Assembly: GCA_000002445.1 (NCBI GenBank)
Contig: CM000208.1
Span: forward strand, 544,001-608,000
Direction of reading: 5' to 3'
Source of the DNA: Trypanosoma brucei
Taxonomy: Eukaryota
DNA: 64,000 bases
The notes under the pieces were generated by a model. That model searched no databases, had not been told where the DNA came from, and saw nothing but the letters and a program-made list of their open reading frames with translations. The position numbers and the translations under genes were made by a program. Shown one piece after another: positions 175-42,213 of this stretch (its first letter is position 1; every line of letters starts with the position of its first letter).

Positions 175-1525
175 ATGGGAAAGGAAAAGGTGCACATGAA
201 TCTTGTGGTGGTGGGCCACGTCGATGCCGGTAAATCCACTGCAACGGGTCACTTGATCTACAAGTGCGGTGGTATTGACAAACGTACGATCGAGAAGTTC
301 GAGAAAGAAGCTGCCGACATTGGTAAGCGCCTCATTCAAGTACGCATGGGTGCTGGACAAGCTGAAGGCTGAGCGCGAACGTGGTATCACGATCGACATT
401 GCACTGTGGAAATTCGAGTCACCCAAGTCTGTCTTCACTATTATTGATGCTCCTGGGCACCGTGACTTCATCAAGAACATGATCACCGGCACATCGCAAG
501 CCGACGCAGCCATCCTCATCATTGCCTCTGCGCAGGGTGAGTTCGAGGCTGGTATCTCCAAGGATGGACAGACCCGCGAGCACGCGTTGCTGGCCTTCAC
601 TTTGGGTGTGAAGCAGATGGTTGTGTGCTGCAACAAGATGGACGACAAGACTGTGAACTACGGACAGGAGCGGTATGACGAGATTGTGAAGGAGGTGTCT
701 GCTTACATCAAGAAGGTTGGGTACAACGTGGAGAAGGTGCGCTTCGTCCCCATCTCCGGATGGCAGGGCGACAACATGATTGAGAAATCCGAGAAGATGC
801 CATGGTACAAGGGTCCAACGCTCCTGGAGGCACTAGACATGCTGGAGCCACCAGTGCGTCCGAGCGACAAGCCCCTGCGTCTGCCACTGCAGGACGTGTA
901 CAAGATCGGTGGTATTGGCACCGTGCCCGTTGGTCGTGTGGAGACCGGCGTGATGAAGCCTGGTGATGTGGTGACGTTTGCCCCCGCCAACGTGACGACC
1001 GAGGTGAAATCGATCGAGATGCACCACGAGCAGCTCGCTGAGGCGACCCCCGGTGACAACGTCGGCTTTAACGTGAAGAACGTTTCTGTAAAGGACATCC
1101 GCCGTGGCAACGTCTGCGGTAACACCAAGAACGACCCCCCAAAGGAGGCCGCCGACTTCACGGCACAGGTGATCATCCTGAACCACCCCGGACAGATTGG
1201 AAACGGTTATGCGCCCGTGCTGGACTGCCACACATCGCACATTGCCTGCAAGTTCGCGGAGATCGAGTCGAAGATCGACCGTCGCTCTGGCAAGGAGCTG
1301 GAGAAGGCTCCCAAGTCGATCAAGTCTGGCGACGCCGCGATCGTGCGCATGGTGCCGCAGAAGCCTATGTGCGTGGAGGTCTTCAACGACTACGCGCCAC
1401 TCGGCCGCTTTGCCGTGCGTGACATGCGCCAGACCGTCGCTGTCGGTATCATCAAGGCCGTGACCAAGAAGGACGGTTCTGGTGGTAAGGTGACGAAGGC
1501 TGCGGTGAAGGCTTCGAAGAAATAA
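175..1525 (+). pseudogene. TEF1: EF-1 alpha copy 1, disrupted by a 1-nt insertion (extra c near 328; ggtaagCgcctc versus ggtaaggcctc in copies 2 and 3). This is either a frameshifted pseudogene or a sequencing error.
   Basis: The ORF track splits the gene into 175..372 and 269..1525. The sequence is otherwise identical to copies 2 and 3. Confidence 0.6.
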
Positions 1526-2351: not shown

Positions 2352-3701
2352 ATGGGAAAGGAAAAGGTGCACATGAATCTTGTGGTGGTGGGCCACGTCG
2401 ATGCCGGTAAATCCACTGCAACGGGTCACTTGATCTACAAGTGCGGTGGTATTGACAAACGTACGATCGAGAAGTTCGAGAAAGAAGCTGCCGACATTGG
2501 TAAGGCCTCATTCAAGTACGCATGGGTGCTGGACAAGCTGAAGGCTGAGCGCGAACGTGGTATCACGATCGACATTGCACTGTGGAAATTCGAGTCACCC
2601 AAGTCTGTCTTCACTATTATTGATGCTCCTGGGCACCGTGACTTCATCAAGAACATGATCACCGGCACATCGCAAGCCGACGCAGCCATCCTCATCATTG
2701 CCTCTGCGCAGGGTGAGTTCGAGGCTGGTATCTCCAAGGATGGACAGACCCGCGAGCACGCGTTGCTGGCCTTCACTTTGGGTGTGAAGCAGATGGTTGT
2801 GTGCTGCAACAAGATGGACGACAAGACTGTGAACTACGGACAGGAGCGGTATGACGAGATTGTGAAGGAGGTGTCTGCTTACATCAAGAAGGTTGGGTAC
2901 AACGTGGAGAAGGTGCGCTTCGTCCCCATCTCCGGATGGCAGGGCGACAACATGATTGAGAAATCCGAGAAGATGCCATGGTACAAGGGTCCAACGCTCC
3001 TGGAGGCACTAGACATGCTGGAGCCACCAGTGCGTCCGAGCGACAAGCCCCTGCGTCTGCCACTGCAGGACGTGTACAAGATCGGTGGTATTGGCACCGT
3101 GCCCGTTGGTCGTGTGGAGACCGGCGTGATGAAGCCTGGTGATGTGGTGACGTTTGCCCCCGCCAACGTGACGACCGAGGTGAAATCGATCGAGATGCAC
3201 CACGAGCAGCTCGCTGAGGCGACCCCCGGTGACAACGTCGGCTTTAACGTGAAGAACGTTTCTGTAAAGGACATCCGCCGTGGCAACGTCTGCGGTAACA
3301 CCAAGAACGACCCCCCAAAGGAGGCCGCCGACTTCACGGCACAGGTGATCATCCTGAACCACCCCGGACAGATTGGAAACGGTTATGCGCCCGTGCTGGA
3401 CTGCCACACATCGCACATTGCCTGCAAGTTCGCGGAGATCGAGTCGAAGATCGACCGTCGCTCTGGCAAGGAGCTGGAGAAGGCTCCCAAGTCGATCAAG
3501 TCTGGCGACGCCGCGATCGTGCGCATGGTGCCGCAGAAGCCTATGTGCGTGGAGGTCTTCAACGACTACGCGCCACTCGGCCGCTTTGCCGTGCGTGACA
3601 TGCGCCAGACCGTCGCTGTCGGTATCATCAAGGCCGTGACCAAGAAGGACGGTTCTGGTGGTAAGGTGACGAAGGCTGCGGTGAAGGCTTCGAAGAAATA
3701 A
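2352..3701 (+). CDS. TEF1: Translation elongation factor 1-alpha (449 aa)
   Basis: Full-length ORF with [10 protein letters not shown]1 motif, DAPGH and NKMD GTPase motifs. The protein is identical to copy 3. Confidence 0.95.
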
Positions 3702-4534: not shown

Positions 4535-5884
4535 ATGGGAAAGGAAAAGGTGCACATGAATCTTGTGGTGGTGGGCCACGTCGATGCCGGTAAATCCACT
4601 GCAACGGGTCACTTGATCTACAAGTGCGGTGGTATTGACAAACGTACGATCGAGAAGTTCGAGAAAGAAGCTGCCGACATTGGTAAGGCCTCATTCAAGT
4701 ACGCATGGGTGCTGGACAAGCTGAAGGCTGAGCGCGAACGTGGTATCACGATCGACATTGCACTGTGGAAATTCGAGTCACCCAAGTCTGTCTTCACTAT
4801 TATTGATGCTCCTGGGCACCGTGACTTCATCAAGAACATGATCACCGGCACATCGCAAGCCGACGCAGCCATCCTCATCATTGCCTCTGCGCAGGGTGAG
4901 TTCGAGGCTGGTATCTCCAAGGATGGACAGACCCGCGAGCACGCGTTGCTGGCCTTCACTTTGGGTGTGAAGCAGATGGTTGTGTGCTGCAACAAGATGG
5001 ACGACAAGACTGTGAACTACGGACAGGAGCGGTATGACGAGATTGTGAAGGAGGTGTCTGCTTACATCAAGAAGGTTGGGTACAACGTGGAGAAGGTGCG
5101 CTTCGTCCCCATCTCCGGATGGCAGGGCGACAACATGATTGAGAAATCCGAGAAGATGCCATGGTACAAGGGTCCAACGCTCCTGGAGGCACTAGACATG
5201 CTGGAGCCACCAGTGCGTCCGAGCGACAAGCCCCTGCGTCTGCCACTGCAGGACGTGTACAAGATCGGTGGTATTGGCACCGTGCCCGTTGGTCGTGTGG
5301 AGACCGGCGTGATGAAGCCTGGTGATGTGGTGACGTTTGCCCCCGCCAACGTGACGACCGAGGTGAAATCGATCGAGATGCACCACGAGCAGCTCGCTGA
5401 GGCGACCCCCGGTGACAACGTCGGCTTTAACGTGAAGAACGTTTCTGTAAAGGACATCCGCCGTGGCAACGTCTGCGGTAACACCAAGAACGACCCCCCA
5501 AAGGAGGCCGCCGACTTCACGGCACAGGTGATCATCCTGAACCACCCCGGACAGATTGGAAACGGTTATGCGCCCGTGCTGGACTGCCACACATCGCACA
5601 TTGCCTGCAAGTTCGCGGAGATCGAGTCGAAGATCGACCGTCGCTCTGGCAAGGAGCTGGAGAAGGCTCCCAAGTCGATCAAGTCTGGCGACGCCGCGAT
5701 CGTGCGCATGGTGCCGCAGAAGCCTATGTGCGTGGAGGTCTTCAACGACTACGCGCCACTCGGCCGCTTTGCCGTGCGTGACATGCGCCAGACCGTCGCT
5801 GTCGGTATCATCAAGGCCGTGACCAAGAAGGACGGTTCTGGTGGTAAGGTGACGAAGGCTGCGGTGAAGGCTTCGAAGAAATAA
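4535..5884 (+). CDS. TEF1: Translation elongation factor 1-alpha (449 aa)
   Basis: Identical protein to copy 2, with the same GTPase motifs. Confidence 0.95.
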
Positions 5885-26563: not shown

Positions 26564-29500
26564 ATGATGCGGAGGACTCTTCGTTGTATGATTCCCGCTG
26601 CTTCCAGTTCATCCACCTCCATTGCAGCGATTCGGAGGCGGCAGCAGCAGCAGCGACATCATTCTCAAGGTCAAACTAACTGGAGATGTGCTCCAACTTT
26701 TAATGAGTCGAATGTGTTAACTGAAACTAACGCGTCTGCTGCCGTAAGGTCTGGCAGTTCAAAGTCCTTATGGCTTTGTGAGGCGCGTCAGGTGACACTG
26801 TCCGATGTCAAGCGTGACTATATCAGCAAGCGGTTGTTGGATAAGAAGACGCGTTTTGTTGTGCGACAGCGGCTTCGTGAGGGAGGTGCAACATCAAATT
26901 TCTTTCCGTTACTTTTTAGCCAACCCATCGTATTGTACTCATACGAAATCGAAGCCACACGCCGTCCTTTGCACGCATTGAAAGCACCCAGTGGGGAGGA
27001 AGTGCCACCACAGTGTAGCGGAGGTAAAACGGGAAAGACAAGGAAGGGGAAAAGTAAAATTACAGCACCTGAAAAAATATCGTCGGTACCTGTGAGACGG
27101 GTGGAGTGCTCTCGGGCGTGGAGGGCTGTGCAACGGTACCTAAGGCGTTGCCTCCCAAATGCACCGCCGCTTGTTAATCTCCGGCAACAAATTTACACAA
27201 CCGCTCCACTTCCAGTTGTTGCTCTGCAGCTACCACCCGAGTGCCTGGACTTAGGATGGGTGGAGTGCAAGCTGCATTTCAGGGGAAAGACCAAACTTAC
27301 TGAAATGGATTCTGCGGAAATGCAGGAGACTGTCAATAAGATTGTGTTGTGGGCGCTGAGGAATGGTGGGTCTAACCAAAAAGGACATCAGTTTTGCGTG
27401 GCGAGGGAAGCTAATGGGAAGGTTGTTCATATACACGACGCTGTGTCGGTGGACGGCCTCCGTGTTTTCAAGGGGACTTTGATTCGGGCCACGTTTGTTA
27501 GCTCTGGAGACGATGCAGAAGATGTGCCGTCGCCGGCTGTTGTACTGCCACCGTCGACCGCTGTGCTTAAGACATTAGCAGCAGGTGATTATGGTGCCAA
27601 AAAACTGCGTTTCGTCGTGGAGGAGTTTGTGCGAGGTTTCGTCTTCAAGGAGCGAAACGTGCATAGCTACAAAATTGCTGACGCCTCCGGCACCACGCAG
27701 GCATCGCTTTGGGATGCAACGGAGGAGACGAAGCTAAAGGTCGGTTGTATTTACGAGGTGACAGACTACCGCGTGCGGGTGTTTGAATCTCATAATGGCA
27801 TGCGTCTCGTGGAGATGACAGTGGGGAAGACAGGTTTCAACGTTGTTATGTCGCAGCAAGATGAGGTTACAACAGGAGAAGAGGCGGACGATAACGGGAA
27901 GGCTAAAAGCAAGGAGAGCCGAAAGGATGTTAAGAAACTCCGTAGTAAATGTGGTAAGGAGGCGTCAGCAGGCGAGGAGAGAAAGCATCAGCATCAACAA
28001 ATTGAAAAGGATGAAGCAAAACGGACAATGAAGAATACTAGTGACTGTGGTTCATTACCTCACTGCACAGGGAAACTTACTCTCAAAATTGATACCAAAT
28101 GCACCGTTGCAACCGAACTTTCATTATGGGAGGAGGTCAAACAGCATTTTGGCAGAGGCCCGTACGACCCAGCGATGGAGGAGCGAATTGCGCGCTCAGT
28201 TCAGGGAACCCCTGTGGTAATATCCACGACTCTAAGACACTCTATTGTCCGTCTCGTTAGATTTAACATGGTTGCAACTGAAGTGAATCTCGAGCCCACG
28301 CTGCAGCACTTAATACGAGAGTTAGAACCAGGGCAACCGTATGCCGTACTCGTGGACTATTCCGTCGTACCGCTTCAAGCCCTACATTGCTGTTACGACC
28401 CGCGAACGCGATCCTGGCAAGATACCAGCGTCACCGCCTGCTCTTTCATGCCTTCACAACGCCTTGAAATCCTTGAGCTGTTTCGTGCCAAATTGGAGAG
28501 CGCTATGCAGCCGTGGGGTATTACGGTTGCACCAAAACCACTGTTATCAAAGGCGCTCTCCCTCTTACCGGCGCCACAAAAGGTTTCTCCATTTGCGAAG
28601 AAACAGACGAATGACACTTCCATTGTTAACGACAACAGCAACGGCCGCCTCCGGAGTGTCGCTCCGAGTGGTTCCGTACCGCTGCGGCATCCTCCTCCCC
28701 CATCGTCACCCACAACAACTGCTGTTGTTGGAATTATTGCCTCTCACGCAAGCGAAGAGGAATCAAGTCGTGTGAAGCAGACAACGCAAGCCATAGGTCG
28801 TTACTGTCGTAGCACTACTGTCATCACAGTTCCTGATGAGCAAGAAGCGGTGCGCTACCTTGTGCAGCAGTTAATCAGTGCTGGCACAGAGGAATTGCGG
28901 GACCCCAACACTGCTGCTGTCATCGTTACGAACGAACGGGAAACACGGTTGGTAAGGTGGATGCAGGCGGAGTGCCTCACGCGTGGGATTTTGCCCCTTT
29001 TTGTGCCCCCCTGTGCTTCACCAAAACAACAGCAATTGCGTTGTGAGAACATTCGGTTGCGATTGCGTACAGTGTTTGCTACCGACCCTCTGCGTGGTGT
29101 TGATCTACAGCGTGAGGTTCCAGCAGTTGCTCAGCGACGTGTGCTTCTTGTCGGCGTCGATTCTTGTCACACACCAACTGTAAGCACTGGCAGCGTTGTG
29201 GGGATTTTGTGTACTGCGGAACGTAATCATTTGTTACCGTTCTTCTGGAAACATGAGAGACGTGGCCAGGAGGTGGAGCTAGTCTCAGAGCACTTTGAAG
29301 TTCTCATTAGCCGCGCCATGGAGTTATATGACGGTTTGGATGACGTGGTGGTTTTTCAGGATGGTGATGTTTACAGTGAGATGTCGGCAATGCAGGCACA
29401 TCTTCCGGTGGGCTGCGGTTTCACTTTCGCATGCCTTCACAAGCGTTCGGACGTGCGATTTGTCCACGAATTTCGGGGTGAAGCCAACACTTCCGGTAGC

Positions 29501-29872
29501 AAAGTTGCGGCAGGGAATGTCGTGAAGGGCACTGTCGTACAGGCCTTAACAATTCAGCGTGCGAGTGAGGATCCATTACTGGGGAATGCCGTCAACTCAT
29601 TTTATCTTCAGAACCACGATTGTGAGACATCCACTGCACGGACGGTTCAATACACGCTATATTGCACGAGCCCCACGCTGGATGTTTCAGATGTGCAGCA
29701 GTTGTCACATGTGCTTGCGCATGCGATGGCGACCCGTGCGACAAAACTCCCGATGCCAACAAGATGTGCTCATCGCCTGGCAAGTATCGTGGAGAGATTA
29801 ATTGATGCCGTTCCACCGCTGCAGTGCTCAATGATTCCCAAACCTTTGAATGAAAGACTGTGGTTCTTTTAA
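26564..29872 (+). CDS. PIWI-domain Argonaute-family protein (1102 aa), probably the T. brucei PIWI-like protein
   Basis: C-terminal third contains VLLVGVDSCHTPTVSTGSVVGILCTAE (Piwi GxDVxH block), VVVFQDGDVYSEMSAMQ (RDG block), LSHVLAHAMATRATK and a C-terminal hydrophobic tail LWFF. No obvious PAZ-like segment seen by eye. Confidence 0.65.
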   Translation: MMRRTLRCMIPAASSSSTSIAAIRRRQQQQRHHSQGQTNWRCAPTFNESNVLTETNASAAVRSGSSKSLWLCEARQVTLSDVKRDYISKRLLDKKTRFVVRQRLREGGATSNFFPLLFSQPIVLYSYEIEATRRPLHALKAPSGEEVPPQCSGGKTGKTRKGKSKITAPEKISSVPVRRVECSRAWRAVQRYLRRCLPNAPPLVNLRQQIYTTAPLPVVALQLPPECLDLGWVECKLHFRGKTKLTEMDSAEMQETVNKIVLWALRNGGSNQKGHQFCVAREANGKVVHIHDAVSVDGLRVFKGTLIRATFVSSGDDAEDVPSPAVVLPPSTAVLKTLAAGDYGAKKLRFVVEEFVRGFVFKERNVHSYKIADASGTTQASLWDATEETKLKVGCIYEVTDYRVRVFESHNGMRLVEMTVGKTGFNVVMSQQDEVTTGEEADDNGKAKSKESRKDVKKLRSKCGKEASAGEERKHQHQQIEKDEAKRTMKNTSDCGSLPHCTGKLTLKIDTKCTVATELSLWEEVKQHFGRGPYDPAMEERIARSVQGTPVVISTTLRHSIVRLVRFNMVATEVNLEPTLQHLIRELEPGQPYAVLVDYSVVPLQALHCCYDPRTRSWQDTSVTACSFMPSQRLEILELFRAKLESAMQPWGITVAPKPLLSKALSLLPAPQKVSPFAKKQTNDTSIVNDNSNGRLRSVAPSGSVPLRHPPPPSSPTTTAVVGIIASHASEEESSRVKQTTQAIGRYCRSTTVITVPDEQEAVRYLVQQLISAGTEELRDPNTAAVIVTNERETRLVRWMQAECLTRGILPLFVPPCASPKQQQLRCENIRLRLRTVFATDPLRGVDLQREVPAVAQRRVLLVGVDSCHTPTVSTGSVVGILCTAERNHLLPFFWKHERRGQEVELVSEHFEVLISRAMELYDGLDDVVVFQDGDVYSEMSAMQAHLPVGCGFTFACLHKRSDVRFVHEFRGEANTSGSKVAAGNVVKGTVVQALTIQRASEDPLLGNAVNSFYLQNHDCETSTARTVQYTLYCTSPTLDVSDVQQLSHVLAHAMATRATKLPMPTRCAHRLASIVERLIDAVPPLQCSMIPKPLNERLWFF

Positions 29873-35218: not shown

Positions 35219-37198
35219 TTCTGAGAGGCACACACGTACATATTCGTGCCCACGTCTTAATCAAAGAACATAATGAAGCGAGAAAGGATAAAATAAATGG
35301 GCGATGTAACGGACAGCCGTACGCTCCGTACCACCAAGTGAAGGAAATGAGGCGGGCTAACAACTCCTCCGATTTTGCCTGATTTTCTCTTCCTCATTCT
35401 CGATGAAGATCAAATTCATTTTTTACTTTTGTGACCAGTAAACGTTTTTTTTGTTCTTACCTTTCCGGTTTTGAAATAAACTTGGCAGGAGCGGCCATAT
35501 CTTAGCAAGGTAGAGTGAGGAGGAGAGAAAGAAAATGATGAGTTCACTTGTTGGCTGTGATTCCCCCCACTTTCCCCTTCACTGTTACGTGCTTTAACAC
35601 ATATAATACCTTCTTCTATTTCTTTTTATTGTTACCCAACCCGTGTTTCTTCTTCACTCTGATCCACTAATAATTGAAGGAAGTTATAAACGTGATAAGT
35701 AAGTTTTTCATGCATTCTCATTGATGTTCAGCACATGGGTTGTTTGCTTACGGATAAACATACGCACATATACATTTTTTTTTTCCAAATCGTTTGGTTA
35801 CGTGATATTTGTTGTGGATAAGTGAAGGTGCTCCTTTCGTTATGTCACCAGTGGCGGCGGCCAGCACTCGCCTTCCCGTTGGTTGCGAGGAAGCGGGAAA
35901 ATGGAGATAAATATAAACGGAAAGGGAACAGTTGTCTTCCCATTGCTGTGGCGGCGAAAGGCGATACAAAGAAATAATAATAATAATGTTAAGTGTTAAT
36001 GGTGCAAAGTGAATGAGTTACCAGACCTTTTTTTGTATTGTGACGATGTTTTTTGTCCTCTCCGTGGTTCAAACATTTCAGGTATGTGCTTTTGAGCGAG
36101 GGATTATGTTTAATGAAGTCGGTACCGTAAACTTTTCTATGTGGTCTCATTGGCGGACCTTTCCGAACATTCTGCACTTCTAATTTTTCATATTGACTTC
36201 CTACTCCTACATGTATTATGTTTCAGTTGCACTTGTTTTTATTCATTACTTTCATTCTTTTCCATACTTCTTTATTTATATGTACCCTTCTTTCCTGTGA
36301 GGGCGACGTGTGTACGCCAGAGTTACACGAAGAAAGAAGGAAAGTCAACAACAAGAACAACAATAATTACACCCACCACCACAATACATATTTAATTATT
36401 TTGGCGTTAGTGAAGAGTACGCAGTGCTGAACGGCAGCAACCCAATCACCAGCAGCGCAACAGCATTTTTTTTGTACTTTATATTTTACATATTTTAATT
36501 ATATATTTACATTTATTTAAATCGCAATAGTGATTAAAATATCACATTATTATTATAGTTAGTTTCTAACCCAACGGGAAAGAAGTCGTGTAAAGAAAAG
36601 GTAATAACAAAATAAAAAGAAGGGAAGAGAAGGAGGAGAAAGCAAGGGAAAGCAAAGACTGCGTGAGAAGGGGGGGGAAGAAAAGGAGAAACTGAAGGGA
36701 TAACGTAGAAAACTGTGAGAAGAACAACAAAAACGAAATAAAACTGGACATCTGAAATACAATCAAGTTTGTGTGTTATCCATATTCCTGTATCGGATTT
36801 TGGAAAGAGGGAAAGCAAAATCAGCAAATAATACGAAGTGGGAGGCAAAAGAGGTGAAGGAAAAGTCCTTTTTTTTAAAAAAAAGGGGGTGCAAAATAAC
36901 CAGACCTGAGGGTAGAAGAAGAAGAAAAAAAAAGCGGTAGGTAATTTACGGTGCAAATCATACATAATTCTTTGTTGGGGTTTAGTACACTTTGCAAAGC
37001 AAAGCAAAGCAAAGCAACACCAACAAAGAAGAACCAAAGGGGACCACAAACACGCACGAGTGACGAGAAGAGAAGAGAAGGAAGGGGGATAATCCTAACA
37101 GGTTGGTGGTTGATAACGTGTTCAAACACCCTCAACTAAAAAAATAAAATAAAGTAATAGAACAGAAAAACGGAAGAGAAGAGAGGATTAACGAATCG

Positions 37199-38098
37199 AT
37201 GTCGATAGATGTGGTTCCTGCTACCGAAACCGCTGCAGCTGCAACCACTACCGCTACTTACATGGACAACATTATTTCTGTTCGAAAGGCCAACGCAAAG
37301 AAACTCGCTGGTGGTTATACTCAAACGAAACGAATAGCAGAAATTTGTTACTTCTCCTTAGCGGTTTGCCTTTGGATGAGAAACGTTGCAATTGTGGTAC
37401 TCTATTTACTGCACAGTAGCGAATCGTCTTCCAATCAGTTATTATGGAGCCCACTGATGATTCTGTCGGCTATGGTATTGTCTGACTTCATTAGCGGCGT
37501 GGCCCACTGGAGTTTTGATACGTGGGGAACCCCGGAGACATTTCTGTTCGGTAACTTTATACGCTCCTTCCGGGAGCATCACGTTAACCAAATGGCCATG
37601 ACCAAACACGATTTTATTGAGACGAATGCCGACACAACTTTACCCCTGATCCCTGTGTTACTGATCCAATTATACTTCCTAGGTTGCAATTCCAAGAATA
37701 ATTCAACATTCCGATACAACATCGACAATGACAACGCTGGTTTCCATGTATTTTTCCTTACTTTCGCACTTTTCATTGGTATGACTAATGAGCTTCACAA
37801 ATGGGCTCACCTGCCGGCGCCGCATCCCTTCGCTCGCCTGCTCATGTCGTGTAGAATTGTTCTCACACGTAAAAGTCACCGCAGGCATCATCGTGGGAGT
37901 TATGACCGCAGTTATTGCATTACAACTGGGTGGTTGAATGCCCCGCTTGACCGAGTTGACTTTTGGCGGAAGGCCGAGGCAGTTGTAACGGCATTGACGG
38001 GTGCGGTTCCACGGGCAAATGATAGGGAGTTGTTAGGCGTACGACATAAAGAAGAAACGGACGGGGAGGGTTGCAATGAGGAATTTGGAGGGTTGTGA
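37199..38098 (+). CDS. PEDS1: Homologue of TMEM189/Kua (plasmanylethanolamine desaturase, PEDS1/CarF family), 299 aa
   Basis: Near-colinear with human TMEM189: GVAHWSFDTWG, FREHHVNQMAMTKHDFIETN, NELHKWAH, RKSHRRHH, YCITTGWLN, PRANDREL. All eight conserved histidines are present. Confidence 0.85.
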   Translation: MSIDVVPATETAAAATTTATYMDNIISVRKANAKKLAGGYTQTKRIAEICYFSLAVCLWMRNVAIVVLYLLHSSESSSNQLLWSPLMILSAMVLSDFISGVAHWSFDTWGTPETFLFGNFIRSFREHHVNQMAMTKHDFIETNADTTLPLIPVLLIQLYFLGCNSKNNSTFRYNIDNDNAGFHVFFLTFALFIGMTNELHKWAHLPAPHPFARLLMSCRIVLTRKSHRRHHRGSYDRSYCITTGWLNAPLDRVDFWRKAEAVVTALTGAVPRANDRELLGVRHKEETDGEGCNEEFGGL

Positions 38099-39858: not shown

Positions 39859-42213
39859 ATGAGTTCACGGGAGCCAACAGCAGCGAATGTGGAGGCGACT
39901 GAAGTGTGTGTGGTTGTGAGCCACGCCGCAAGGAAATTTCAGATTACACTACCGGCTGCCACGGCAACTGTGGGTGACATAAAAAATAGAATAGAGCAAA
40001 GCACTGGAGTGCCAGTGGAAAGGCAACGACTTTTGTTTGGTGCGCATACCCTTAAACAATACCGAAATGGGGATATTGAAAATGTGAGACTTATTGATAT
40101 CGTTGTGAAACCTAGTGGTCGTGCCAATGAAAAAGGGATCAAAGCACCCGCCGGCACCAACGACAATCCAAAGGAGGGAAGGGATGACAACAGCAGTAGC
40201 GGCAATGGGACAGTAACTTTAACGTCGGGCTCCGTTATTACGCTGCCGGTGATGTTGCTAGGAACCGCAGCATCAGCCCCTCATGTTGATGAAGAGGTGA
40301 CAGCTCAACTCCACCGGTTGGTTACAACTACGTTAGAGCATGACAGTCGATGGTTCCGATGCAGTTACGGCAAAGGATATGCGCGGCAAACCGCTTTTGT
40401 CTGTCGCACGTGTGTGGACAGTGGAGCTGCAGATCCCTCTCACGCCATTTGCTACGCCTGTGCAGAGGTGTGTCACACCGGTCATGACGTTGAGGAATGG
40501 GGCGTACGTTACTTCATGCGTTGTGACTGCTGTACCCCTGTTTGCTGGAGAGACATAAAGGTGAATGGAAGTAAGGAGGAGTGGGATAAAAAAGCTGTAA
40601 ACGACCACAGTAGCGAAGGTAATAGGGGCCAAGGGGATGAGAACTCAAAAATGTCCCGGGGGGTGTTGCCCCTGATACGGAAAGCCGAAGAGACGCGTCA
40701 GCTGAAGAGGTGCTGTTTTATATTAGACAGCGAGACAAGTGAACCTCCTGTGTCGAGAGAGGCTGTTCCACTAAACGGCAGAAACATTTACCCACGGTCG
40801 TCATATGCATGGTGTTTCTGCTGTTGTGAGGATGACTACCCACCGGATGGGACGAATGAGAGTGCAGGAGTTGTCTGTATGCTTTGTGCCACATGTTTCT
40901 GGAGTGCCCACATCACGCGTCTGCACACGGGCATGCTCAACCGCCTTCCCTGCCACGGGAATTTGGTGGAGGGTGATGTGGTGGCTTTCTACTGCGAAAC
41001 GTGTAAAGGTGTTGTTTGTGGACCCTGTCGCCTTCGCTGCCACGCCGACCACGAAGTGCAAAAGGACGTAGTGGTCGCGCCATACGAACAACACGGAAAG
41101 GGAGCTGTCGCAAATTCACGAGACCACACATTTAAATGTGAGTGTGGCTGTTTTTCCAGTGATAAAAGTGCTGGTGATGACGGGCTTAATGATAGAAATG
41201 CCTCACTGTTGCCACCAAATACAGCAGTGGACATTATGAACAGCGACTCACTCATTGGATTCATATGTGCATACTGCATGCAGGAACATCCATGGCTTGC
41301 GGACAGGGATTATCGTTACTGCTACGGCGGGAAATTGCCGGACCCCGTGCCAAAGGAACAACATAAACCAATAGTTTCGTGTAACTTTCCTCCTGACGCT
41401 GAGTGCCCCGACGACAGGTACCCTTTTCATGGTATGCTTTTCTCCGTTGATGCATTCACAGAGAAGATGACTTGCAAATGCGCACCGTGTCGTCAAGCAT
41501 ATGAGCGGTTTGCTCCTCGTACAACCACCACCGCCCAAGACGAGATGGCGGTGGAGCTCCATGAAGCTTGCGACCACTGCGGTCGGAACATACGTGACGA
41601 AAACGCATTTATGTGCCAAACTTGCGAGTTATGTTGTGGAAAGGCGTTCTTTGTTTGCCGCCGCTGCAACTCACTTCGGCTTGGTTTGAACCTGCCTACC
41701 CCGAGCAGTACAAACGATGAGTCGGTGCACGGGAATACGCAGGAGGGTAACACTGTCTCATCTACCGAACAAGAGGATGAACCCGCATCGTGGGACCATC
41801 CTTCAGATCACGTATTTCTTGAGGACACATGCGAGAACCTCTTTAACCTTTGCGGAATGTGTGTCGCACATCACCTTGGGCCGCAAGCGGAGGATCTTTC
41901 ATCTATGGACGCAGAATCCATAGCTGGTACTGTCATGACGGTGTTGCAACGTACGTTTGGTGAGGCCCCTCTCACATTCGATCCCAAGGACATTGCTCAA
42001 CACCACCAGTTGTTGCAGCAACAGAAAAAGAAACCAAATGCCAGCGCAAACACCCAGTCTTCATCCAATGAACGTACAGGACGGCGTGTATCACCAGCAT
42101 CGATAGCGAAGGGATGTAAACGTCCACGTATTGAAGAAAGTGAGGATGATAGCGACGTTCGCAACGGTGTGAGTAGCGGCAGTGGTGCGCATGACGGCGA
42201 CGATCAAATTTAG
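39859..42213 (+). CDS. Putative E3 ligase-like protein with a UBR-box (UBR7-like), an N-terminal ubiquitin-like domain and additional Cys-rich fingers (784 aa)
   Basis: UBR box RCSYGKGYARQTAFVCRTCVDSGAADPSHAICYACAEVCHTGHDVEEWGVRYFMRCDCC. N-terminus KFQITLPAATATVGDIKNRIEQSTGVPVERQRLLFGAHTLK is ubiquitin-like. Later FMCQTCELCCGKAFFVCRRC. Confidence 0.6.
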   Translation: MSSREPTAANVEATEVCVVVSHAARKFQITLPAATATVGDIKNRIEQSTGVPVERQRLLFGAHTLKQYRNGDIENVRLIDIVVKPSGRANEKGIKAPAGTNDNPKEGRDDNSSSGNGTVTLTSGSVITLPVMLLGTAASAPHVDEEVTAQLHRLVTTTLEHDSRWFRCSYGKGYARQTAFVCRTCVDSGAADPSHAICYACAEVCHTGHDVEEWGVRYFMRCDCCTPVCWRDIKVNGSKEEWDKKAVNDHSSEGNRGQGDENSKMSRGVLPLIRKAEETRQLKRCCFILDSETSEPPVSREAVPLNGRNIYPRSSYAWCFCCCEDDYPPDGTNESAGVVCMLCATCFWSAHITRLHTGMLNRLPCHGNLVEGDVVAFYCETCKGVVCGPCRLRCHADHEVQKDVVVAPYEQHGKGAVANSRDHTFKCECGCFSSDKSAGDDGLNDRNASLLPPNTAVDIMNSDSLIGFICAYCMQEHPWLADRDYRYCYGGKLPDPVPKEQHKPIVSCNFPPDAECPDDRYPFHGMLFSVDAFTEKMTCKCAPCRQAYERFAPRTTTTAQDEMAVELHEACDHCGRNIRDENAFMCQTCELCCGKAFFVCRRCNSLRLGLNLPTPSSTNDESVHGNTQEGNTVSSTEQEDEPASWDHPSDHVFLEDTCENLFNLCGMCVAHHLGPQAEDLSSMDAESIAGTVMTVLQRTFGEAPLTFDPKDIAQHHQLLQQQKKKPNASANTQSSSNERTGRRVSPASIAKGCKRPRIEESEDDSDVRNGVSSGSGAHDGDDQI

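What the first reader, a model, noticed from the sequence alone, without database searches (positions are those of the whole stretch)
37199..38098. Clear homologue of TMEM189/Kua (plasmanylethanolamine desaturase, PEDS1)
The protein is nearly colinear with human TMEM189 across all conserved histidine boxes (HW, REHH, HKWAH, HRRHH) and the YCITTGWLN and PRADD-like C-terminal motifs. PEDS1 is the enzyme that introduces the vinyl-ether bond of plasmalogens, and its gene was identified in animals and bacteria only recently. Trypanosomatids are rich in ether lipids and plasmalogens, so this ORF is a strong candidate for the parasite plasmalogen desaturase.
Basis: partly seen in the sequence, partly recalled or inferred. 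Interest (0 to 1): 0.55.

Follow-up and report, generated by a model that had tools for sequence, protein, structure and literature searches.

The report
Trypanosoma brucei plasmalogen desaturase (PEDS1) gene

Summary
The ORF at 37199..38098 (+), 299 aa, is real. It matches Pfam PF10520 (Lipid_desat, formerly Kua/TMEM189) end to end (E 1.2e-60, 205 bits against a cut-off of 26.4). It is 37% identical to human PEDS1 over residues 27-275.

It keeps all nine histidines that mutagenesis showed to be essential in CarF and TMEM189, plus the essential Asp and Phe. This includes the ninth histidine (H137), which plant FAD4 enzymes replace with Arg. In a tree it sits in a 99%-supported trypanosomatid clade and is separated from FAD4 with 100% support. 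It is 62% identical to the T. cruzi protein; that species' PEDS1 was validated by complementation.

The sequence is exactly GenBank XP_822479.1 (T. brucei TREU927), which is still named 'ubiquitin-conjugating enzyme variant Kua homologue'. That accession was already used as 'T. brucei PEDS1' in a 2024 phylogeny. T. cruzi and L. major PEDS1 homologues were shown to make plasmalogen in a Myxococcus carF-deletion strain in 2026.

The open points are direct proof for the T. brucei enzyme, its head-group range, and a corrected database name. Interest is low.

The parts
37199..38098 (+). Complete coding sequence (299 aa plus stop) of T. brucei PEDS1. It is identical to XP_822479.1 / EAN77651.1.
   Evidence: ORF. 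Exact-sequence look-up. PF10520 match at E 1.2e-60. The M1 start is supported by the conserved N-terminus in T. congolense (MAVDVAP versus MSIDVVP).
37322..37522 (+). Predicted transmembrane helices 1 and 2 (residues 42-72 and 78-108). Helix 2 ends in the first His motif.
   Evidence: AlphaFold2 model with pLDDT 89.5 and pTM 0.85 gives helices H42-72 and H78-108. Kyte-Doolittle hydrophobic segments lie at 48-74 and 80-104.
37505..37519 (+). HWSFD motif. H103 corresponds to human H95 and D107 to human D99 (the essential aspartate).
   Evidence: Alignment mapping. Both are invariant in 83 homologues. Essentiality of the His and Asp is reported in PMC9131029.
37568..37582 (+). FREHH motif. F124 corresponds to human F117; H127 and H128 correspond to human H120 and H121.
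   Evidence: Essentiality from the literature.
37604..37615 (+). KHDF motif. H137 is the ninth histidine (CarF H113, mouse H131, human H130 by the alignment). It marks PEDS1-type enzymes; FAD4 enzymes have Arg here.
   Evidence: His in all PEDS1/CarF-type sequences and Arg in all six plant FAD4 or FAD4-like proteins. Literature.
37646..37810 (+). Predicted transmembrane helices 3 and 4 (about residues 150-162 and 180-204), joined by a loop at residues 163-179. The loop is longer in trypanosomatids than in human PEDS1 or in the kinetoplastid metagenome relative P0030.
   Evidence: Secondary structure. Alignment gaps.
37796..37810 (+). HKWAH motif (HxxxH box). H200 and H204 correspond to human H186 and H190.
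37877..37891 (+). HRRHH motif (HxxHH box). H227, H230 and H231 correspond to human H214, H217 and H218.
37913..38023 (+). Conserved C-terminal cytosolic region running from YCITTGWLN (239-247) to PRAND (271-275).
   Evidence: C240, G244, N247, T267, G268, R272 and D275 are invariant in 83 homologues. Coordinates.

Best explanation
The ORF encodes the T. brucei orthologue of plasmanylethanolamine desaturase (PEDS1 / TMEM189 / CarF). It is a four-helix integral membrane protein. Nine histidines on the cytosolic face are expected to hold a di-iron centre. Using O2 and electrons (via cytochrome b5 in mammals), the enzyme removes two hydrogens from C1'-C2' of the sn-1 alkyl chain of 1-O-alkyl-2-acyl-glycerophosphoethanolamine. 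This converts the ether into the vinyl ether of plasmenylethanolamine, which is the last step of aerobic plasmalogen synthesis. Shown here: family membership, the complete catalytic residue set, placement in the PEDS1 branch rather than the FAD4 branch, orthology by tree topology and synteny, and a confident four-helix model. Inferred: the actual reaction, the di-iron cofactor, the electron donor, ER location and substrate head-group.
Against: No experiment on the T. brucei protein itself was found in the searchable library. The NCBIfam equivalog cut-off (500 bits) is not reached, although validated human PEDS1 (234 bits) and an Archangium CarF homologue (332 bits) also fail it, so that cut-off is only meaningful for close Myxococcus relatives. 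There is no solved PEDS1 structure, and the fold match to Scs7p is modest. Model coordinates could not be inspected, so clustering of the histidines in 3D was not measured. The tree is neighbour-joining on 33 sequences, and deep nodes among the PEDS1 groups are unresolved.
Confidence: 0.9

Rival explanations
1. It is a PEDS1-fold desaturase with shifted or broadened specificity in T. brucei. For example, it might act on plasmanyl-serine or plasmanyl-choline as well as, or instead of, plasmanyl-ethanolamine.
For: T. brucei ether lipids are reported mainly in PE and PS, with measurable ether PC (PMC5513551). Trypanosomatid proteins carry a lineage-specific longer loop between helices 3 and 4, and T. 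brucei has extra N- and C-terminal tails. Identity to animal PEDS1 is only 36-39%.
Against: T. cruzi and L. major homologues act on the ethanolamine ether lipid of M. xanthus. All residues known to be needed for PEDS1 activity are unchanged. The extra segments lie in a loop and in low-confidence tails, away from the His motifs.
Confidence: 0.07
2. It is an FAD4-type desaturase that introduces a trans-delta-3 double bond into 16:0 at sn-2 of phosphatidylglycerol, as in plant chloroplasts.
For: FAD4 belongs to the same Pfam family PF10520 and shares eight of the nine histidines.
Against: The window protein has His at position 137, where all six FAD4 or FAD4-like proteins have Arg. Identity to FAD4 is 23-26%, against 36-39% to animal and myxobacterial PEDS1. 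FAD4 separates with 100% bootstrap support. The CarF-model score is twice that of FAD4. From established knowledge, trypanosomes have no plastid. PMC13012113 reports that PEDS1 and FAD4 are mutually exclusive across the eukaryotes it sampled.
Confidence: 0.02
3. As the database name says, it is a 'ubiquitin-conjugating enzyme variant Kua homologue': a ubiquitin-pathway protein, or a localisation domain for one.
For: Only the inherited annotation in GenBank and UniProt. The name comes from a rare human Kua-UEV1 read-through transcript (PMC9131029).
Against: The Pfam scan finds no UBC/UEV domain. The whole conserved region is the lipid desaturase domain. The 299-aa protein ends 24 residues after that domain. 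The next gene downstream is separate, starts at 39859, and has only a weak ubiquitin-like match.
Confidence: 0.01

Closest known systems
Trypanosoma cruzi and Leishmania major PEDS1 (validated by complementation of M. xanthus lacking carF; PMC13012113)
   Same: The window protein is 62% identical to T. cruzi P0005 over 258 residues and about 55% identical to Leishmania proteins. It has the same length class and the same nine His plus Asp and Phe. It shares the longer helix 3-4 loop and sits in the same 99%-supported trypanosomatid clade, whose topology follows the species tree.
   Different: The T. brucei protein has about 10 extra Ala/Thr-rich N-terminal residues and a C-terminal tail of about 19 residues, both modelled with low confidence. 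It has not itself been tested.
Human PEDS1 / TMEM189 (UniProt A5PLL7)
   Same: 37% identity, colinear over residues 27-275. All essential residues map one to one: H95, D99, F117, H120, H121, H130, H186, H190, H214, H217 and H218. The YCITTGWLN motif is identical, and PRADD becomes PRAND.
   Different: There is a 13-residue gap in the helix 3-4 loop and the termini differ. T. brucei has no adjacent UEV1 gene and no Kua-UEV fusion.
Myxobacterial CarF (M. xanthus; Archangium homologues used here)
   Same: 36-39% identity, the same His pattern including the CarF H113 equivalent, and a match at E 2.1e-48 to NCBIfam NF045946 over model positions 8-238 of 269. Most of the 80 prokaryotic relatives recovered are labelled Myxococcota.
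   Different: The window protein scores 165 bits, below the 500-bit equivalog cut-off. In its host, CarF serves a light-response signalling pathway rather than bulk membrane lipid synthesis.
Plant FAD4 (palmitoyl-[glycerolipid] 3-(E)-desaturase, At4g27030)
   Same: Same Pfam family and fold class. Eight shared His and the shared Asp.
   Different: FAD4 has Arg instead of the ninth His. Identity is only 23-26%. It forms a separate clade with 100% support. It is a chloroplast enzyme that acts on an sn-2 acyl chain of phosphatidylglycerol.
Scs7p sphingolipid alpha-hydroxylase (PDB 4zr0), a membrane di-metal His-box enzyme
   Different: Identity is 11-13%, there is no sequence-level hit, and it is a different family with a different reaction.

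Membership tests
Pfam PF10520 Lipid_desat (Kua / TMEM189 / CarF / FAD4) | Profile match above the curated gathering score over the whole domain | tested here: met
   205 bits against a cut-off of 26.4, E 1.2e-60, profile positions 1-174 of 175, residues 92-273.
PEDS1/CarF subfamily | The eight histidines conserved in all family members and essential in CarF and TMEM189 | tested here: met
   H103, H127, H128, H200, H204, H227, H230 and H231 align with human H95, H120, H121, H186, H190, H214, H217 and H218. They are invariant in 83 sequences. Essentiality is reported in PMC9131029.
PEDS1/CarF subfamily | The ninth histidine (CarF H113 / mouse H131), present in functional PEDS1 enzymes and replaced by Arg in plant homologues | tested here: met
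   H137 in KHDF aligns with human H130. All six FAD4 or FAD4-like proteins have Arg there.
PEDS1/CarF subfamily | The essential Asp and Phe (human D99 and F117) | tested here: met
   D107 and F124 align with them. The requirement is cited.
PEDS1/CarF subfamily | Phylogenetic placement with validated PEDS1 enzymes and apart from FAD4 | tested here: met
   FAD4 bipartition at 100% and trypanosomatid clade at 99%, the clade including T. cruzi and Leishmania sequences from species with validated homologues. Caveats: NJ method, 33 taxa, deep nodes unresolved.
PEDS1/CarF subfamily | Four-transmembrane-helix topology with all the His on one (cytosolic) side | tested here: inconclusive
   The AF2 model (pLDDT 89.5) shows long helices at 42-72, 78-108, about 139-162 and 180-204, with His motifs at helix ends or in the two soluble segments.
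PEDS1/CarF subfamily | [quoted passage not shown] | not testable with these tools
   Shown only for T. cruzi and L. major homologues (PMC13012113). No T. brucei experiment was found.
PEDS1/CarF subfamily | Co-occurrence in the genome with the upstream ether-lipid enzymes (FAR/GNPAT or FARAT, and AGPS) | not tested
   These genes are not in this window. The literature describes TbDAT and alkyl-DHAP synthase activity in T. brucei.
NCBIfam NF045946 PlasmethDesatCarF (equivalog) | Score at or above the 500-bit equivalog cut-off | tested here: not met
   The window protein scores 165 bits. Validated human PEDS1 scores 234 and an Archangium CarF homologue 332, so the cut-off only admits close Myxococcus relatives and says nothing against function.
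Plant FAD4 | Arg at the ninth-His position, and clustering with chloroplast FAD4 sequences | tested here: not met
   The window protein has His, not Arg. Identity is 23-26%, and the split from FAD4 has 100% support.
Ubiquitin-conjugating enzyme variant (UEV), the current database name | Presence of a UBC/UEV fold domain | tested here: not met
   No UBC domain appears in the Pfam scan at E up to 1. The only significant domain is PF10520.

The most novel reading that the evidence does not exclude
The T. brucei enzyme may differ functionally from animal PEDS1 in a way that matters for the parasite. It might desaturate ether-linked PS or PC as well as PE, or be needed for survival in one life-cycle stage. 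Either would make it a tractable handle on why trypanosomes invest in plasmalogens. The lineage-specific helix 3-4 loop and the T. brucei-only tails are the only sequence hints.
Probability: 0.12. Interest if true: 0.4.

Novelty: already known. Interest (0 to 1): 0.12.

Why it matters
The result confirms a correct functional call for a gene that public databases still name misleadingly ('ubiquitin-conjugating enzyme variant Kua homologue'). It also identifies the last enzyme of plasmalogen synthesis in T. brucei, where ether lipids make up a sizeable share of PE and PS. No new biology emerges. The family, its presence in kinetoplastids and the activity of T. cruzi and L. major homologues are all published. 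The practical value is re-annotation and a defined target for knock-out lipidomics in T. brucei.

Tried and rejected
- **Solved structures by sequence.** The PDB sequence search found nothing relevant, only chance nucleophosmin hits at E above 0.1.
- **Arabidopsis FAD4 from memory.** My recalled sequence was not an exact database entry. I used it only as a query to retrieve genuine FAD4 proteins, and all comparisons used those retrieved proteins.
- **Possible bacterial nearest relatives.** The closest non-trypanosomatid relatives are metagenome proteins at 45-50% identity. I considered whether they were bacterial, which would suggest a separate gene transfer into kinetoplastids. The contig carrying P0030 has the same gene order as the T. 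brucei window, so that relative is kinetoplastid.
- **M. xanthus CarF.** The genome scan's top 80 loci did not include M. xanthus itself, so Archangium and other Myxococcota homologues stood in for it. One extracted ORF (Hyalangium L061) was truncated by my script and was dropped.
- **Tree building.** The first attempt timed out. Rooted support values from Biopython were misleading, so I recomputed support as bipartition frequencies.
- **Supplements.** The supplementary tables of PMC13012113 are not held as text. I could not check whether T. brucei was among its 15 kinetoplastid taxa, or which T. cruzi accession it tested.
- **Trans-splice site.** The last strong polypyrimidine tract lies about 900 nt upstream of the ATG, so the sequence alone does not fix the 5' end of the mRNA.
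- **Functional clustering.** The neighbouring genes are functionally unrelated, as expected for a trypanosome polycistron, so there is no lipid-pathway gene cluster.

Full report
**Observation**

A 299-codon ATG-to-stop ORF lies at exactly 37199..38098 on the + strand, and the opposite strand is closed by many stops.
- HWSFD, residues 103-107
- FREHH, residues 124-128
- HKWAH, residues 200-204
- HRRHH, residues 227-231
- YCITTGWLN, residues 239-247
- PRAND, residues 271-275

Pfam PF10520 (now named Lipid_desat, formerly Kua-UEV1_localn/TMEM189) matches at E 1.2e-60 and 205 bits, against a gathering score of 26.4. The match covers profile positions 1-174 of 175.

**Identity of the sequence**

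An exact-sequence look-up shows the protein is XP_822479.1 / EAN77651.1 of Trypanosoma brucei brucei TREU927. It is also found in T. equiperdum. The source annotation is 'ubiquitin-conjugating enzyme variant Kua homologue, putative'.

The window is a typical trypanosome polycistron. All gene-like ORFs of 200 aa or more are on the + strand. They include tandem EF-1alpha copies, a UCH protease, a Piwi-domain protein, a pyridine-nucleotide oxidoreductase, an NTF2-domain protein, then this gene, then a ubiquitin-like protein, Vps35 and a DnaJ protein. None relates to lipid metabolism, as expected in these genomes.

**Which branch of the family**

PF10520 contains two functionally different groups. 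PEDS1/CarF makes the vinyl ether of plasmalogens. Plant FAD4 makes trans-delta-3 16:1 on phosphatidylglycerol. The review PMC9131029 states that eight histidines conserved in all members are essential. A ninth (CarF H113, mouse H131) is present in the functional PEDS1 enzymes but is usually Arg in plants. An Asp and a Phe (human D99 and F117) are also required.

I aligned the window protein with the following sequences:
- verified human PEDS1 (A5PLL7)
- two other animal sequences
- Naegleria and Heterostelium
- eleven other trypanosomatids
- Myxococcota and Leptospiraceae homologues fetched from genomes
- six genuine plant FAD4 or FAD4-like proteins

The window protein has all eleven required residues. 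H103, D107, F124, H127, H128, H137, H200, H204, H227, H230 and H231 correspond to human H95, D99, F117, H120, H121, H130, H186, H190, H214, H217 and H218. All six plant proteins have Arg at the H137 position. The nine His, D107 and F124 are invariant across an 83-sequence alignment.

Four further measures agree:
- **Identity.** The window protein is 36-39% identical to animal and myxobacterial sequences and 23-26% identical to FAD4.
- **Tree.** In a neighbour-joining tree with 300 bootstraps, FAD4 separates at 100% and the trypanosomatids form a clade at 99%. The inner topology follows species relationships: brucei+congolense 93%, +vivax 99%, cruzi+grayi+theileri 98%. This supports simple orthology.
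- **CarF model.** The bacterial CarF model NF045946 gives 165 bits for the window protein, 172 for T. cruzi, 166 for Leishmania, 234 for human and 77-81 for FAD4. The 500-bit equivalog cut-off is also missed by human PEDS1 and by an Archangium CarF homologue (332 bits), so missing it carries no weight.
- **Synteny.** A metagenome relative at 49% identity sits in the same gene order (UCH, Pyr_redox_2, NTF2, Lipid_desat). That relative is therefore kinetoplastid, not bacterial, and the locus is old within the group.

**Structure**

**Mechanism**

By homology, the protein should bind a di-iron centre through the nine histidines on the cytosolic face. It should use O2 and reducing equivalents to abstract hydrogens from C1' and C2' of the sn-1 alkyl chain of plasmanylethanolamine, producing plasmenylethanolamine.

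This work shows family, subfamily, catalytic residues, orthology and fold class. The reaction, cofactor, electron donor, location and head-group range are inferred.

The biological setting is consistent. Plasmalogens have been reported in Trypanosoma, including T. brucei (references cited in PMC13012113). T. brucei ether lipids are mainly in PE and PS and depend on the upstream enzyme TbDAT (PMC5513551).

**Rivals**

- **FAD4-type activity.** This is excluded by the His/Arg position, the tree, the model scores and the lack of a plastid.
- **The database name.** 'Ubiquitin-conjugating enzyme variant' derives from a rare human Kua-UEV1 read-through transcript. The protein has no UBC/UEV domain.
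- **Shifted or broader head-group specificity.** This cannot be excluded from sequence. The only supporting features are a longer helix 3-4 loop in trypanosomatids and T. brucei-specific tails.

**Comparison with what is known**

The identification is already in print. PMC11225845 (2024) lists 'T. brucei (XP_822479)' and 'T. cruzi (PWU95043)' among the PEDS1 sequences in its phylogeny. PWU95043.1 belongs to the cluster of P0005, which is 62% identical to the window protein. PMC13012113 (2026) reports PEDS1 in ten of fifteen Kinetoplastea. It shows that T. cruzi and L. major homologues restore plasmalogen synthesis in M. xanthus lacking carF. Seven literature searches found no experiment on the T. 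brucei protein itself.

**Verdict**

I put confidence at about 0.9 that this is the T. brucei plasmanylethanolamine desaturase. It is already known, and interest is low. What remains is direct proof in T. brucei, the head-group range, and correction of the public annotation.

Noticed in passing
Related protein P0003 (T. vivax; CCC51174.1, KAG8344175.1, KAH8614487.1): PMC13012113 states that T. vivax lacks all four plasmalogen-pathway enzymes. However, a 285-aa T. vivax PF10520 protein exists. It is 63% identical to the window protein, has all nine His plus Asp and Phe, and branches with T. brucei and T. congolense at 99% support. The reported absence probably reflects the proteome set that paper used.
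   Followed up: partly
Related protein P0028 (Phytomonas sp. EM1): Phytomonas sp. EM1 encodes a complete PEDS1-type protein with every catalytic residue. The 2026 paper reports Phytomonas sp. Hart1 as having lost PEDS1. This suggests either a difference within the genus or an assembly gap.
   Followed up: no
window 269-1525, 2352-3701, 4535-5884 (+): A tandem array of EF-1alpha genes. Two are full 449-aa copies with identical Pfam scores, and a third ORF is listed from an internal GTG, lacking about the first 40 positions of the GTP_EFTU domain.
   Followed up: no
window 26564-29872 (+) compared with locus L081 1456-3496: A 1102-aa Piwi-domain protein lies between the UCH and Pyr_redox_2 genes in the window. 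In the syntenic kinetoplastid metagenome contig L081, that slot holds a 373-aa protein with only a faint TPR hit and no Piwi gene.
   Followed up: no
window 35219-37198 (+): The intergenic region upstream of the gene is about 2 kb long. The last strong polypyrimidine tract with a following AG is at 36246-36300. The 400 nt just before the ATG are purine-rich, with A/G runs and (CAAAG)n-like repeats at about 36995-37020. This implies either a long 5' UTR or a weak, unrecognised splice acceptor.
   Followed up: partly
window 37199-37264 and 38039-38095 (+): T. brucei carries an extra Ala/Thr-rich N-terminal stretch (TETAAAATTTATYM) and an acidic C-terminal tail of about 19 residues. Both are absent from T. 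cruzi, and the tail is shorter in T. congolense. The model gives them low confidence. T. b. gambiense differs from the window protein at four non-catalytic positions.
   Followed up: partly
loci L022, L032, L058, L064 (MAGs labelled Woesearchaeota or Methanosarcinales) and L043 (labelled Klebsiella pneumoniae MAG): A few PEDS1/CarF-like genes, 34-40% identical to the window protein, sit on contigs from metagenome bins labelled archaeal or enterobacterial. Most of the 80 loci are labelled Myxococcota. These could be binning errors or unexpected hosts.
   Followed up: no
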